A stretch of DNA of 64,000 bases from the human T2T-CHM13v2.0 reference genome, Homo sapiens. Each line of letters starts with the position of its first letter. Within the stretch, counting starts at the first letter, position 1. Below the pieces are notes generated by a model. That model was not told the DNA's origin and did not search any database. It saw only the letters and a program-made list of their open reading frames with translations. This document shows positions 34,649 through 38,683 of this stretch, piece after piece. Location: the NCBI RefSeq assembly GCF_009914755.1, contig NC_060930.1; one strand, given 5' to 3'. The position numbers and the translations under genes were made by a program.

Positions 34649-35939
34649 TAAAGGCCTTCTTTGAAAGAGAAAAAGAAGAGGTGGCATTCTGTGAAGGAAC
34701 ATCAAGGACCAGACATCCAGCTTCCCCTGTAGCCCAGGTCCCCCTAGCGGTGCTTCTCTTCAGATTGAGGACCTATTCTTTGGAGTTCCGAATTCCTAGT
34801 AGTCCAGCCCTCAGATCTCCACCTTGAGACTCCACCCTCAAGATTCTCATTTTCTGCCTTTCCCTTCTAAGGCTTAATCCCATCGGGACTAAGGGAGGAG
34901 CCTTCCCTTCCAGCCTCACACAGGCAGACTATCTCAAAAGAAAGAGAAAGCAATTTTCCCTTGCATGCTGGCTGTTTCACTTCCTTCTACTTTTAGGAAA
35001 TGGTGAGTGATTTTGTTTAAAAGAGAATAATCTTGGAGTTTGAGTAGAGTTTGGGGAAAATGTTGACAACTTCTGGGACACACACTCTGTCCTTGTTGCC
35101 CCCATTCTCTTCAAGGCAGGAGGGATGATTATTTTGCTTCTTTCTCTCCAATGCAACCCAGCATCTGTCCTCCGTTCTGTTCTCAGTGGCAACTCTTCTG
35201 CCCAGAAGATGGACCTATTTACTCTATAACACATCATTCCCAGATATAGGCGCATTAGAGTTGGAAGAGAACTTGAATTAGTGTCTGACCACCTGTAATA
35301 GGCAGGGATCTATTTCCAGCGTCTGTGACAGCAGTCATCTAGCCTCTAATTAAACACTTCATGAGACATTGCTGTTCCACACTCACGCAGATTTAATTCT
35401 CTCTAGAATCTGCCCCAGCATGGCTTTGACTCTTGTGTTTTATGCCCCAGACCAACACAAAACCAGTCTATTCCCTCTCCACAGGCCAGCTTTTCATCTC
35501 AACTTCTCACTTAGTTTCTCTCTTGGCTCTGACCCTAACCTAAGGCATCGACACACAGTTTTGGGATTCTTCCCTCAAATCTAAATTGGCAATCCTTATG
35601 TTAGTCCAGACAACACCAAGGCAAGAACATATGTGGAGGGTGAAGGGCAGCACCTACATCCAGGGAGAGAACAGGGCCATCGATGAGGAGAGGGTCTATA
35701 GGGATCTGGGAGGTCAAGGGCTTGGTTGTTAATGGGATGGAAAATCAGAACAGGGTAGAAAATAGGCATGACAGGGAAAGAAGCTCAGTCTCACCTTAAC
35801 TCTAACTGATCCAACAAGAAAGCTGAGCCACTTTCCTGAATCCCAGAAGATCTTATTTCTTCAAGCTGACATGACTGATTCTTTACTAGTCCATGTGTCA
35901 AGACCATCTGGGGTCCCTTAAACCAGTGGCTCCCAAACA

Positions 35940-36237
35940 ATTTTTTTTTTTTTTTGAGACAGAGTCTTGCTCCGTCGCCCAGGCTGGAGTGCAGTGGCGT
36001 GCTCTCAGCTCATTGCAACCTCCACCTTCCAGGCTCAAGCGATTCTCGTGCCTCAACCTCCCGAGTAGCTGGGATTACAGGCTTGCACCACCATGCTTGG
36101 CTAATTTTTTTGTATGTGTAGTAGAGACAGGGTTTCTCCATGTTGTCCAGGCTGGTCGAGACTCCTGGCCTCAAGTGATCCTCCTGCCTTGGCCTCCCAA
36201 AGTGCTGGGATTACAGGTGTGAGCCACTGCGCCCAGC
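35940..36237 (-). mobile_element. AluS
   Basis: Alu consensus; TSD cccaaac. Confidence 0.88.
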
Positions 36238-36494
36238 CCCAAACTTTTGTGTTCAGAAGAATTACCCGATGTAGTAAAAATGCACATCATGGTCCCCTCC
36301 CAAACCGATTCCCCTTGATTATCTGCCCCCTAGAGGAAGGGCACAATACTGTTTGGAGAGGAGCTTGATGGGCCTTCAACTTTTCTCTTACGTTCTTTAG
36401 TCGGAGAGTATCATGAATAGTTAAAAGAATAACACCATCCCCTGTAAACCCTGGTCTTGTAACTCCCCCATACCTGGGATATGGAATAATGCAT

Positions 36495-36755
36495 GGGTTA
36501 AGGGCTTTAGGGGCTAGCTCTGGGGTCAGACTGCCTTGATTTAAATCGTTGTTCCACTACCTACTAACTGTCTGACCTGGAACTAGCTGCTTAACTTCTT
36601 TAAACCTCAATTTACCTATCTATAAAATGGGGGTAATATTAGTTTCTATCTCAAGGAGGTATTGTAAGGATTTTAGTACTAATTTATATGTGGCACTTAG
36701 CACAGTGCCTGGAATATAGTGAGCATTCTTAAATGACAGCCACTATTATTATCAC
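36495..36755 (+). mobile_element. MIR
   Basis: MIR core (cctcaatttacctatctataaaatggggg...cacttagcacagtgcctgg). Confidence 0.85.
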
Positions 36756-36798
36756 TAGTATTACTCATAGTAGCGGTAGCGGTGAACAAAACCAAATT

Positions 36799-37050
36799 TC
36801 CAGTGGAGCCAACCAGCCACCCTTTCTTAACCAGCTGTAACTTCCAGTGAAATCACCACGATCATCCCCCCAGATTAACCCCACCTTCCAGTGGAATCAC
36901 TGTGACCACCCCTCCAGGATCAACCACATTATCCAGCAGAATCACCGTGACCACGCCCCCTGGACCAACCACACCTCCCAGTGGAATCACTACAACCCCC
37001 CTGCCCTGGGTCCACTATATCTTCCAGTGGAACTAACACAACAACTGCAA
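36799..37050 (+). repeat. Degenerate 45-bp (15-codon) PTS tandem repeat, unit lengths 44,44,45,45,46 plus a partial unit
   Basis: Recurrent (t/c)ccag(t/c)(g/a)(g/a)a motif starting at 36799, 36843, 36887, 36932, 36977, 37023; encodes SSGITVTTPPGSTTL-like units. Confidence 0.85.
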
Positions 37051-38683
37051 CCTCCAGTGTCACCAGCACAAGTGCAGCCCCTCCAGGGAATGAGGGAAGG
37101 TCTAATGGATGCCTGAGGCTGTGGGAAGTCATCCTAGTCACTCTGGCCTTGGTTGCAATGGCTGTGATTCTCTTCACAGGGCTCTTTTATTTCATGAGTG
37201 CCTGATGTGTGGGAAATCCTTTTTCTGAGGGAGGGAGTGCAGGGAACTGAGGAGGGAAGCAGGGTAGAGAGAGTAGGGTCATTGTGTGGCTAATAGGGAA
37301 TGAGAAATCAGGAGAGGGACAAAGCAAGACAGAGACAGCAGGTGAGAACCAGCAAGAGAGAGGGCTAGAAAAGCTGGTACATGTTCAGAGGAAATTGATG
37401 AGGAGAGAAGGGGCCAAAGGAGTACTGAGGCTGGGGAGGCCGAATGGGGAGTGGGGACACGTGGGATGGGAGAGCACTGGAAGAGGGGCATAACTCTGAA
37501 CGATCCATCCTTTTGTTTTCTAGAGAAACTCTCTGTGCCTAAGAAACCTCTTCACCAAAGATCTTCACATCCCAAACCTTGGTCCATGTCCTCAAGGATA
37601 TCATGGAGTCCAAGATGGGTCAAGTGAGACTGAAACGGATTTTAGAGACCAGTGTTCTCCCACAGGCATGGAGCTGATGAGGAGACACAGTATCCCTAAA
37701 GGCAGGCACTTCACTGTCCTCAGGGTGGGGAGGACCAGCGGTCTCGGTTTTCCTCACTTGCCCCCAGGGCTGCTCCTCCCAGCTCTGCTCCAGCCCCTGA
37801 CACTCCTACCTTCTGTTTAGTTCTCCCAGACCTGAAACAGGAGGCTATCGCTAGTGCTGAATGATTAAATAAGTGCATCTGCTCTATGTGACAGCCAGAC
37901 TGTGGGTGTGTGCTTGTATATTGCTGTGAAGAGAGGTTTCCTATATCATGAGGACACTCTTTCGCTGTGTACTCCCAGTTCTCAAATCCTAGCATGAAAT
38001 CCAGAGACCTCACATCTGTCCCATTTTCTTCCCCACTCCTTCCCTGCTCCCCGAGGCCTCTGGGTCGATGGAAGAATGGAGTCAGGAGAGATGGGGGAAG
38101 GCAGGTGCTGGTCTTTACAGACGTGTGTTGCATGGCAGGAAAACAGCCTCTGCGTGAGCCTAGAACATGAACTGGAGGAAAGTGATCCTGTTTTCATGTT
38201 GTGAGGTAGGAAAGAGCTTGCTACTGGGGCCACCCTTAGACATGGCCACTTTTCCTGGCCACTCACGTCTGCTCTGGGCTGCAGGTGTGAGTTGCCACCT
38301 TTCTCTCCTGTGGGCTCCCAGCCCAGCAACTGTCCTGGGCAGGGAGAATGTGCTCCCAGTTTTTGCAAGGGCAGGACTGGCTTGCCCTGCTACGGTCTAG
38401 ATCCTCAGCAGCTCCCCCAAAACCAGGCCTCAGAGGGCACACATGCCAGTGTCAGCACCATGCTCAGGCCTGGTCCCACCCAGGCTTCTGGTGCAACTTG
38501 CTCTCGCACACGCACCCCACTGATTCTTCCTCCCTGTGAATCACTCGCCTCTGCTTTATCAGTTTCACCCTCTGCTAAGTCTCTTCAGCTTCTGGGATTC
38601 TCCTGGGTCTTTGGGAGAGCCTTAACAGGACCAAGCTGTTTCTCTAAGAACATTTTACAATATGATGAACAAAACTGTTTTTA

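What the first reader, a model, noticed from the sequence alone, without database searches (positions are those of the whole stretch)
34936..37869. Hidden MUC21-like transmembrane mucin gene relic between MUC22 and HCG22
Seen: four co-linear + strand pieces rebuild the same architecture as the flanking mucins. (a) 34936-35002: basic then hydrophobic signal-like KRKRKQFSLACWLFHFLLLLGN with a phase-1 donor G|gtgagtga, the same donor as HCG22 exon 1. (b) 36799-37050: a 45-bp PTS repeat. (c) ...GRSNGCLRLWEVILVTLALVAMAVILFTGLFYF, a TM segment aligning with MUC22 [33 protein letters not shown]. (d) After a 330-bp intron, a strong acceptor and RNSLCLRNLFTKDLHIPNLGPCPQGYHG...GMELMRRHSIP, then ATTAAA. 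Recalled knowledge: MUC21 has 15-aa SSGASTATNSESSTT repeats, TM [26 protein letters not shown] and tail RNSLSLRNTF...LGPGPGGNHG...AMEMSGRNSGP. Inference: this is an additional, inactivated member of the MHC mucin array for which I know no annotation. The ORF track shows only a 74-aa fragment of it.
Basis: partly seen in the sequence, partly recalled or inferred. Interest (0 to 1): 0.9.

Follow-up and report, generated by a model that had tools for sequence, protein, structure and literature searches.

The report
Dead human MUC21-like mucin gene
Between MUC22 and HCG22 in the human MHC lies the decayed three-exon remnant of a small membrane mucin gene, an old sister of MUC21 that still looks intact in some other animals but is broken in several places in this human genome.

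Summary
Window 34014-38421 (+) is co-linear at DNA level with the whole MUC21 unit 62 kb upstream: promoter, signal-peptide exon, 45-bp PTS repeats, TM segment, a 330-bp intron, tail exon. The TM and tail pieces match MUC21 (E 1e-10 and 1e-4 in the 184-kb cluster; 0 of 2000 shuffles). It is an ancient paralogue, not a copy of MUC21: about 60% DNA identity, with intron 2 near saturation. Predicted proteins from unnamed other species (P0001, P0002, P0004-P0006, part of P0003) form a clade with it, apart from MUC21 and MUC22 (support 96/96). P0002, P0005 and P0006 look intact: start Met, signal peptide, TM, spliced tail. The human copy has AGA where they start, an Alu in the TATA-like box, no frame open from exon 1 to the TM, an exon-2 donor GT>AT, and no stop at the family's position. 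No other human locus matches P0002 better. It is a unitary, unprocessed pseudogene, absent from the RefSeq table supplied and from four literature searches. GENCODE and transcript data could not be checked. A second, MUC22-like relic lies upstream of MUC21.

The parts
34014..34337 (+). Promoter relic, homologous to the 330 bp upstream of the MUC21 start. It ends in the TATA-like TTTAAAGG (34323-34330), opposite MUC21 TATAAAGG.
   Evidence: blastn gives 63.8% over 329, E 1e-29 and 63.6%. Alignment and K80 0.50 are.
34338..34648 (-). Alu insertion (poly-T first on the + strand) splitting the TATA-like box from exon 1. It is flanked by the direct duplication TAAAGGCCTTCTT at 34325-34337 and 34649-34661.
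   Evidence: The high-copy element appears. The duplicated flank is read. The MUC21 homology blocks stop and resume on either side of it.
34658..35002 (+). Exon 1 relic: 5' UTR equivalent plus signal-peptide coding part (34939-35002). AGA at 34939-34941 stands where the orthologues have the start Met. There is no ATG in the open frame 34828-35010.
   Evidence: DNA homology to MUC21 exon 1 is 60.7% over 430, E 4e-17; alignment. P0002 residues 2-22 match 34942-35001 at 71%. Signal against P0002 and P0005 N-termini: 0 of 2000 shuffles. ORF list.
35003..35014 (+). Exon 1 donor, phase 1: G|gtgagtgatttt, identical to the MUC21 exon 1 donor.
   Evidence: It is the only exact match to TGGTGAGTGATTTT in the window.
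35939..36246 (-). Alu inside intron 1 (the intron spans 35003-36847).
   Evidence: Multi-copy blastn hits.
36796..37065 (+). Six 45-bp units (15-residue PTS repeat of the type SSGITVTTPPGSTT). The spacing of the CCAGTGG motif is 44, 44, 45, 45, 46 nt, so the S/T reading frame moves between units.
   Evidence: Tandem Repeats Finder: 36841-36990, period 45, 3.4 copies. Units in register and frames. blastn to the MUC21 repeats in many registers, 59-62%.
36848..37193 (+). Exon 2 relic. The acceptor cttccag| at 36841-36847 is inferred. It holds a short PTS region, a stalk and the TM segment (37122-37193). The frame entered from exon 1 stops at 37114. The S/T frame stops at 36848 and 37034. The TM frame has stops at 36876, 36903 and 36948.
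   Evidence: Frames. TM against MUC21: 41.9% over 62, E 1.2e-10; 0 of 2000 shuffles. PF14654 scores 23.5 bits, under the 27-bit cut-off. The acceptor is inferred from where P0002 starts relative to P0001.
37194..37199 (+). Broken exon 2 donor: ATGAGT where MUC21, MUC22 and HCG22 all have GTGAGT. Read-through gives ...FYFMSA and a stop.
   Evidence: Junction contexts. Five-sequence alignment.
37194..37523 (+). Intron 2 (330 nt; 318 nt in MUC21), with a conserved acceptor ttttctag.
   Evidence: 47.5% identity to MUC21 intron 2, K80 about 1.0.
37524..37697 (+). Exon 3 coding relic: the cytoplasmic tail RNSLCLRNLF...MELMRRHSIP. AAA stands where MUC21 has its stop, and P0002 and P0004 end at the matching residue. 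The frame therefore runs on to 37820.
   Evidence: Against MUC21 tail: 37.5% over 64, E 1e-4. Against P0002: 47%. Shuffle scores 72 (MUC21), 102 (P0002) and 138 (P0005), each with 0 of 2000 shuffles as high. ORF 37524-37820. Alignment.
37864..37869 (+). ATTAAA, a possible polyadenylation signal. It is not homologous to the MUC21 3' end, and its use is not shown.
   Evidence: Read.
38350..38421 (+). Weak last co-linear block with the MUC21 3' UTR region.
   Evidence: blastn 70% over 74, E 3e-4.

Best explanation
This is a unitary, unprocessed pseudogene. It is the human remnant of a small type-I membrane mucin gene that arose by an ancient tandem duplication of the MUC21-type gene in the MHC mucin cluster.

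The ancestral gene had three exons:
- exon 1: 5' UTR and signal peptide, ending in phase 1;
- exon 2: a short Ser/Thr/Pro-rich region of 15-residue repeats, a stalk and the transmembrane helix;
- exon 3: a roughly 58-residue cytoplasmic tail beginning RNSLxLRNLF.

It encoded a protein of about 150-220 residues, as the apparently intact relatives P0002, P0005 and P0006 do in other species.

In this human genome it cannot make that protein:
- the start codon position reads AGA;
- an Alu sits in the TATA-like box;
- the repeat units have lost register, so no frame is open from exon 1 through the TM helix;
- the exon-2 donor is AT instead of GT;
- the stop at the family's position is gone.

Shown: the homology, the exon layout, the lesions, the separate clade, and the lack of another human copy. 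Inferred: the order and age of the lesions, and the exact exon-2 acceptor. Also inferred: the donor change was a CpG transition (TTC|GTG to TTC|ATG), and the relatives are functional genes.
For: Homology to MUC21:
- Co-linear DNA homology runs from promoter to tail exon (E 1e-29, 4e-17, 1e-38; repeated on masked sequence).
- Exon boundaries are shared with MUC21, MUC22 and HCG22...TG|gtgagt at the TM exon end and ag|AGAAAC at the tail exon start.
- TM and tail match MUC21 in the 184-kb cluster (E 1.2e-10 and 9.6e-5), with 0 of 2000 shuffles as high.

An old paralogue that was long kept by selection:
- K80 is 0.45-0.62 in the promoter, exon and other flanking blocks against about 1.0 in intron 2.
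- In the junction alignment the candidate is 65.6% identical to MUC21 but 47% to MUC22 and to HCG22.

Relatives elsewhere:
- An exhaustive HMMER search gave 9 proteins at E<=1e-3.
- P0002 hits the three relic exons in order (71%, 59%, 47%) and MUC21 only at 29%.
- Tail-module identity of the candidate is 0.44-0.60 to P0001, P0002 and P0004-P0006 (0.51 to P0003b), against 0.41 to MUC21, 0.31 to MUC22 and 0.27 to HCG22.
- The seven candidate-like rows form one clade with support 96/96.
- P0002, P0004, P0005 and P0006 pass the PF14654 cut-off at 34-37 bits.
- P0003 holds a MUC22-like TM followed by a candidate-like repeat array and TM, the same gene order as in human.

Unitary status:
- Searching the human genome with P0002 gives only the relic (E 4.6e-12 and 3.1e-4) and MUC21 (E 7e-4).

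Lesions:
-.
- Exon and read-through intron are equally conserved between human and P0001 (43 of 63 against 14 of 20 residues). This fits neutral drift.
Against: - The related proteins come from unnamed sources, without DNA, names or taxa. Their intactness rests on predicted models.
- Three of the six candidate-like hits are themselves flawed. P0001 is an unspliced ORF with the same ATG at the donor. P0004 reads exon 1 in a shifted frame. P0003 is a 1858-residue chimera with an off-frame tail.
- The human TM exon alone scores 23.5 bits on PF14654, below the 27-bit cut-off, and the tail exon alone hits no Pfam family.
- Whole-genome searches with the candidate tail or the MUC21 tail did not find each other. 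Default blastn saw only Alus. The link needed a targeted, sensitive comparison.
- The signal peptide does not match MUC21's at protein level (1154 of 2000 shuffles).
- The tree rests on 108 columns. Three rows fill under half of them, and only one branch is starred.
- The exon-2 acceptor is inferred.
- No transcript, population or GENCODE data could be consulted, and only one human haplotype (CHM13) was seen.
Confidence: 0.85

Rival explanations
1. The locus is dead as a coding gene but still active as a transcribed non-coding RNA or regulatory element, as its neighbour HCG22 is annotated. This would add to the pseudogene reading rather than replace it.
For: The exon-1 donor and exon-3 acceptor are intact, and an ATTAAA follows the tail exon. 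The neighbour HCG22, a relative with a stop before its TM and a short tail, is annotated as a transcribed ncRNA pseudogene (supplied table).
Against: The supplied table lists no RefSeq transcript or functional element at 34-38.4 kb. An Alu splits the TATA-like box from exon 1. The exon-2 donor is lost. No expression data were available here.
Confidence: 0.12
2. It is a live, unannotated protein-coding gene that uses other signals than those assumed here.
For: Long open stretches remain: 84 codons over the TM and 98 over the tail.
Against: There is no ATG in the exon-1 frame. No frame is open from the exon-1 phase to the TM, whichever of the three frames is taken. The junction is AT-AG, and read-through stops after four codons. 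The 84-codon frame has no Met before the TM.
Confidence: 0.02
3. It is a recent segmental or retro-copy of MUC21 (or of MUC22 or HCG22) that decayed quickly.
For: It lies in a cluster where a younger duplicate does exist: the MUC22-like relic upstream of MUC21, 80-92% identical to MUC22.
Against: Introns and promoter are retained, so it is not a retro-copy. Identity to MUC21 is only 59-64%, and intron 2 is near saturation. Proteins from other species are closer to it than to MUC21. There is no blastn match to MUC22 or HCG22 apart from Alus.
Confidence: 0.01
4. The resemblance is chance between low-complexity Ser/Thr-rich and hydrophobic sequence.
For: PTS repeats and TM helices do align by composition. 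Many weak S/T hits appear.
Against: Non-repetitive promoter, junction and tail sequence align co-linearly. 0 of 2000 composition-preserving shuffles reach the TM or tail scores. Exon boundaries coincide to the base.
Confidence: 0.005

Closest known systems
MUC21 (epiglycanin), chr6 MHC class I region, 62 kb upstream
   Same: Three-exon layout, with an identical exon-1 donor (G|gtgagtgatttt). Tandem repeats of 45 bp (15 residues). A TM helix at the end of exon 2, a short intron 2 (318 against 330 nt), and a tail exon starting AGAAAC (RN). Homologous promoter with a TATA-like box.
   Different: About 60% DNA and 37-42% protein identity. About 6 decayed repeat units against a 513-codon PTS exon in MUC21. 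The relic belongs to a separate clade with its own relatives in other species, and it is broken.
HCG22 (PBMUCL2), the next gene downstream, annotated as an ncRNA pseudogene
   Same: A decayed member of the same family in the same array. Its TM exon ends in GTG|gtgagt, and its tail shares the YHPH motif. PF14654 scores 28.9 bits.
   Different: Only 27% identity in the tail module and no DNA match by blastn. HCG22 is annotated and transcribed. Its first RefSeq exon has a different donor.
MUC22 (PBMUCL1), the next gene upstream
   Same: Same family (PF14654), same TM-exon and tail-exon junctions.
   Different: 31% identity in the tail module. MUC22 has a very large PTS exon and a His/Gly-rich tail.
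Predicted proteins P0002, P0005, P0006 (unnamed species)
   Same: Signal peptide (MKEKVFSLEYWLLFHLLLLLGNA and MKRKAFFLPCWLFHLLLLLVNA against human KRKRKQFSLACWLFHFLLLLGN). Stalk, TM and tail also match. Splice position ...FYF|RNS.
   Different: They have a start Met and one open frame of 154-219 residues. The human copy has neither.

Membership tests
Pfam PF14654 Epiglycanin_C (mucin cleavage site, TM and cytoplasmic tail) | Score at or above the 27-bit gathering cut-off | tested here: not met
   The human TM exon alone scores 23.5-23.6 bits over profile positions 4-40 and 23 bits in the genome scan. The tail exon alone gives no hit. The domain is split over two exons, and the spliced reading was not scored. 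Relatives P0001 (30.1), P0002 (34.5), P0004 (34.2), P0005 (37.2) and P0006 (34.5) pass.
Pfam PF14654 Epiglycanin_C | Genomic setting and exon junctions shared with the accepted human members | tested here: met
   All 8 hits with E under 0.3 in the human genome lie in this cluster. The donor and acceptor positions are shared with MUC21, MUC22 and HCG22.
Membrane-tethered mucin architecture | Signal peptide, Ser/Thr/Pro-rich tandem repeats, one TM helix and a cytoplasmic tail, in that order | tested here: met
   All four are present as relics in order on the + strand. The hydrophobic core of the signal scores KD 2.38 over 12 residues, and the TM scores 2.79 over 19. No single frame joins them.
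MUC21 orthologue or recent copy | Closest relative is MUC21 itself, rather than a separate lineage | tested here: not met
   The candidate groups with P0001, P0002, P0004-P0006 and P0003b (96/96) apart from human MUC21 plus P0009. Identities are 0.44-0.60 against 0.41.
Unprocessed pseudogene | Introns and promoter of the parent gene type retained | tested here: met
   Promoter block E 1e-29. The intron-1 start and intron 2 are in place, and the exon junctions are conserved.
Unprocessed pseudogene | Disabling lesions | tested here: met
   AGA at the start position and no ATG in frame. Stops in all three frames of exon 2. Donor GT>AT. Alu in the TATA-like box.
Unitary pseudogene | No intact copy of the same lineage elsewhere in the genome | tested here: met
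   P0002 against the whole human assembly gives only the relic and MUC21 (3 matches, 16 candidates scored). The tool's first look is loose and missed distant pairs.
Unitary pseudogene | Intact, syntenic orthologue in other species | tested here: inconclusive
   P0002, P0005 and P0006 look intact, and P0003 shows the MUC22-then-candidate order. No DNA, names or synteny could be seen for the intact ones.

The most novel reading that the evidence does not exclude
The MHC mucin cluster has a further, so far unnamed gene lineage: a 150-220-residue mini-mucin, sister to MUC21, that is alive in some mammals and was lost in humans. The loss may have happened more than once, through a hypermutable CpG that straddles the exon-2 splice donor. 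An unspliced ORF from another species (P0001) carries the same AT at that site, while close relatives are spliced there. Humans would then lack a cell-surface mucin that other mammals express, in a region tied to airway and skin disease.
Probability: 0.5. Interest if true: 0.6.

Novelty: new member of a known kind. Interest (0 to 1): 0.45.

Why it matters
The interval between MUC21 and HCG22 is the candidate region for diffuse panbronchiolitis. It lies beside the psoriasis locus, in one of the most closely annotated parts of the human genome.

- A complete three-exon gene relic missing from the annotation changes the count and history of the mucin array. With the MUC22-like relic upstream of MUC21, there are at least six Epiglycanin_C loci rather than the four usually listed.
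- It identifies a human gene loss, so that species with the intact gene could show what was lost.
- It gives a label to variants and association signals that currently fall in 'intergenic' sequence.

It is not a new kind of element. Its practical weight depends on whether the orthologue is expressed elsewhere and whether the human locus is still transcribed.

Tried and rejected
- Default blastn of 34500-38300 against the rest of the window found only Alu copies.
- tblastn of the four pieces against the rest of the window gave nothing significant. The best result was a weak TM alignment to HCG22 ending exactly at its exon end (E 0.086).
- Whole-genome searches with the candidate tail and the MUC21 tail found only the query itself plus noise. 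The tool's first look is too coarse for 37% identity, so I fetched the cluster and searched it directly.
- Word-indexed protein searches with the tail found nothing, both at 'longer' and 'near' lengths.
I used the single protein P0002 and the Pfam family instead.
- The protein atlas gave only leads: nearest cluster 'Mucin 21', score 0.90, and no separate large cluster for the mini-mucin.
- I considered a single duplication of a [MUC22-type + MUC21-type] gene pair with reciprocal decay, and set it aside. The MUC22-like relic is 80-92% identical to MUC22, while the candidate is about 60% identical to MUC21, so the two events differ greatly in age unless gene conversion intervened.
- I did not date the Alus, because no consensus library was at hand.
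- L004 (the MUC22 exon 1 region) was fetched but not analysed.
- Literature: four full-text searches, plus passages of PMC7848197 and PMC13345508, mention no mucin relic between MUC22 and HCG22. The original PBMUCL1/PBMUCL2 cloning paper is not in the library and was not seen. No supplements were opened.
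Full report
**1. The observation**

- 34936-35002 reads KRKRKQFSLACWLFHFLLLLGN plus one base, followed by gtgagtga.
- A 45-bp tandem array was found by Tandem Repeats Finder at 36841-36990 (3.4 copies, 75% matches, score 160). 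Six units can be laid in register over 36796-37065.
- A hydrophobic segment ...LRLWEVILVTLALVAMAVILFTGLFYF ends at 37193.
- A 330-nt gap follows, then ttttctag|AGAAAC.
- The open frame reads RNSLCLRNLFTKDLHIPNLGPCPQGYHG...GMELMRRHSIP.
- ATTAAA lies at 37864-37869.

**2. Is it related to the flanking mucins?**

Inside the window the answer at first looked negative. Default blastn found only Alus. tblastn of the pieces against the rest of the window gave only a weak TM alignment to HCG22, which ended exactly at its exon end (E 0.086).

MUC21 lies outside the window, so I fetched it from the same assembly (L003). A sensitive blastn (word 7) shows co-linear homology of the locus with the whole MUC21 unit:

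| Candidate | L003 (MUC21) | Identity | E-value | Content |
|---|---|---|---|---|
| 34014-34332 | 535-863 | 64% | 1e-29 | promoter |
| 34658-35077 | 872-1259 | 61% | 4e-17 | exon 1 and start of intron 1 |
| 36799-37805 | 4440-5474 | 59% over 1070 | 1e-38 | last repeats, TM, intron 2, tail exon |
| 38350-38421 | 6067-6138 | 70% over 74 | 3e-4 | weak block in the 3' UTR region |

The same blocks came back on repeat-masked sequence.

I then joined twelve fetched stretches to the window to make a 184-kb cluster. In it, the MUC21 TM piece finds the candidate at E 1.2e-10 (41.9% over 62) and the MUC21 tail finds it at E 9.6e-5 (37.5% over 64). In shuffle controls, 0 of 2000 shuffles reach the TM or tail scores. 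The signal peptide is not similar to MUC21's at protein level (1154 of 2000 shuffles), although the DNA aligns.

Exon junctions coincide.
- The exon-1 donor G|gtgagtgatttt is identical in MUC21 and the candidate.
- The TM exon ends ...TG|gtgagt in MUC21, MUC22 and HCG22.
- The tail exon begins ag|AGAAAC in MUC21, MUC22 and the candidate.

RefSeq HCG22 exon 1 ends ACTG|gtaagt, and the 14-mer across the candidate's donor occurs once in the window.

**3. What kind of relative is it?**

It is not a recent copy.
- K80 distances to MUC21 are 0.50 (promoter), 0.59 (exon 1), 0.58 (TM), 0.48 (tail coding) and about 1.0 in intron 2, which is 47.5% identical. The duplication is therefore very old. Exons and promoter were conserved well beyond the neutral level for much of the time since, which suggests the copy once worked.
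- In a five-way alignment of the TM-exon junction the candidate is 65.6% identical to MUC21 and 47% to MUC22 and to HCG22.

**4. Relatives in other species**

A word-indexed search with the TM piece found one protein, P0001 (147 aa, 68% identity). It is an unspliced ORF that covers the orthologous exon 2 and reads on into the intron.

An exhaustive HMMER search of 1.84 billion representatives gave 9 proteins at E<=1e-3. Two of them, P0007 and P0008, are unrelated repeat proteins. The others are as follows.
- **P0002 (154 aa), P0005 (219 aa), P0006 (218 aa).** Each has a start Met and a signal peptide strikingly like the human exon 1 (MKEKVFSLEYWLLFHLLLLLGNA and MKRKAFFLPCWLFHLLLLLVNA against KRKRKQFSLACWLFHFLLLLGN). 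They then have a Ser/Thr-rich region, the TM, and a tail spliced exactly at ...FYF|RNS.
- **P0004 (214 aa).** It has the same C-terminal half but reads exon 1 in a shifted frame.
- **P0003 (1858 aa).** This is a chimeric model holding a MUC22-like TM, followed by about twelve SSGPSTATSSGTATT repeats and a candidate-like TM. That is the human gene order.
- **P0009 (240 aa).** It is MUC21-like.

Evidence that these belong with the candidate rather than with MUC21:
- On the 184-kb cluster, P0002 hits the three relic exons in order (34942-35001 at 71%, 37008-37226 at 59%, 37524-37697 at 47%) and MUC21 at only 29%.
- On the whole human assembly, P0002 finds only the relic (E 4.6e-12 and 3.1e-4) and MUC21 (E 7e-4).
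- In the TM-plus-tail module the candidate is 0.60, 0.57, 0.57, 0.51 and 0.44 identical to P0001, P0002, P0004, P0005 and P0006. It is 0.41, 0.31 and 0.27 identical to human MUC21, MUC22 and HCG22.
- A maximum-likelihood tree was built from all 12 rows, keeping 108 of 139 columns. It puts the seven candidate-like rows on one side of a branch with support 96/96, the only starred branch. MUC21 plus P0009 have 72/82 support, and the MUC22 rows are not resolved as one group.
- The human end branch (0.26) is not longer than those of the intact relatives (0.12-0.65).
- P0002, P0004, P0005 and P0006 pass the Epiglycanin_C cut-off at 34-37 bits. The human TM exon alone does not, at 23.5 bits.

**5. 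How the human copy is broken**

1. *Start codon.* Where P0002 and P0005 have Met, the human reads AGA (34939-34941). The open frame 34828-35010 holds no ATG.
2. *Promoter.* An Alu (34338-34648, poly-T first) sits in the TATA-like box, TTTAAAGG opposite MUC21's TATAAAGG. It is flanked by the duplicated TAAAGGCCTTCTT, and the MUC21 homology stops and resumes on either side of it.
3. *Exon 2 frame.* The acceptor is probably cttccag| at 36841-36847, judged from where P0002's second exon starts relative to P0001's ORF. This is an inference. From it, the frame set by exon 1 stops at 37114, before the TM. The Ser/Thr frame of units 3-5 stops at 37034. The TM frame has stops at 36876, 36903 and 36948. 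The CCAGTGG motif is spaced 44, 44, 45, 45 and 46 nt, so single-base losses and gains moved the register.
4. *Exon 2 donor.* It reads ATGAGTGCCT where MUC21 has GTGAGTGCCT. Read-through gives FMSA and a stop. The preceding base is C, so the ancestral TTC|GTG held a CpG and the change is the expected CpG transition (inference). P0001 has the same ATG (…HFMSA…), while its close relatives P0002 and P0004 are spliced there. The change may therefore have recurred.
5. *Stop codon.* AAA stands opposite MUC21's TGA, and P0002 and P0004 end at the matching residue. The frame therefore runs 40 codons further, to 37820.

Human and P0001 are as similar in the read-through intron (14 of 20 residues) as in the exon (43 of 63). 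This is as expected if at least one of the two lineages has drifted without constraint.

**6. Explanation**

The locus is a unitary, unprocessed pseudogene of an old MUC21 paralogue that encoded a small type-I membrane mucin. The rivals fare as follows.
- *Live coding gene.* Nearly excluded by the frames and the junction.
- *Recent copy or retro-copy.* Excluded by the divergence, the retained introns and the separate clade.
- *Chance.* Excluded by co-linear non-repetitive DNA and the shuffles.
- *Still transcribed as non-coding RNA, as HCG22 is.* This cannot be tested here and would not conflict with the main reading.

**7. Comparison with the known, and novelty**

The family is Pfam Epiglycanin_C. 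In the human assembly, 8 of 9 hits at E<=1 lie in this cluster:
- MUC22: 2 hits
- MUC21: 2 hits
- a MUC22-like relic upstream of MUC21: 2 hits
- HCG22: 1 hit
- the candidate: 1 hit

The supplied RefSeq table has no gene at 34-38.4 kb. Four full-text searches and passages of two papers (PMC7848197; PMC13345508) mention no such relic. A 2026 preprint on the mucin pangenome names only MUC21 and MUC22 on chromosome 6 (passages). I could not consult GENCODE, pseudogene sets, the PBMUCL1/2 cloning paper or any supplement, so prior annotation is not excluded.

I rate it a new member of a known kind, of moderate interest.

**8. Limits**

- Only one human haplotype was seen.
- There are no transcript data.
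- The relatives are unnamed and without DNA.
- The tree is short.
- The acceptor and the history of the lesions are inferred.

Noticed in passing
Outside the window: window coordinates -47243..-32895 (loci L016 and L017; G000:C6:30828757-30843105): A second relic not in the supplied RefSeq table, between NAPGP2 and MUC21. It is a MUC22-like partial gene with four recognisable parts. The PTS is degenerate (about 64% to the MUC22 repeats). One block is 92.5% identical to a MUC22 intron. The TM exon is 85.5% identical, and the G of its donor is deleted (CTG|tgagtg). The tail exon is 80.5% identical. PF14654 scores 48.6 and 41.4 bits.
   Followed up: partly
window 45184-45266: RefSeq HCG22 exon 1 ends ACTG|gtaagt and shows no likeness to the MUC21-type signal exon. 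No MUC21-type exon 1 was found upstream of HCG22 by the blastn runs.
   Followed up: partly
window 51144-51221 and 48533-48652: The HCG22 tail exon starts KECFLPPLNPSTRVIYHPHVMDYSTP and then stops, sharing the YHPH motif of the MUC21 tail. Its TM exon has an in-frame stop 28 codons before the TM and scores 28.9 bits on PF14654.
   Followed up: no
window 23867-23943: The MUC22 tail, read in another frame, gives [11 protein letters not shown]. This resembles MUC21's WSPNWFWRRPV, and the MUC22-like relic reads WFWRRPAASPALGVSSSENIP then stop. The His/Gly-rich tail of MUC22 therefore looks like a frame-shifted descendant of a MUC21-type tail.
   Followed up: no
outside the window, window coordinates -74137..-74036 (LOC124901299 region, locus L013): A further weak TM-like match (SVSDWAIVLITLTLVAAIVSLMYGI; E 0.014-0.06) to the MUC21 and candidate TM pieces. 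It may be a more distant member of the array.
   Followed up: no
P0003 (1858 aa, unnamed species): In this chimeric model the candidate-like gene carries about twelve clean 15-residue repeats. After the TM it reads ESAMPKKPL..., which matches the human tail exon in a shifted frame. The orthologue may be broken in that species too.
   Followed up: partly
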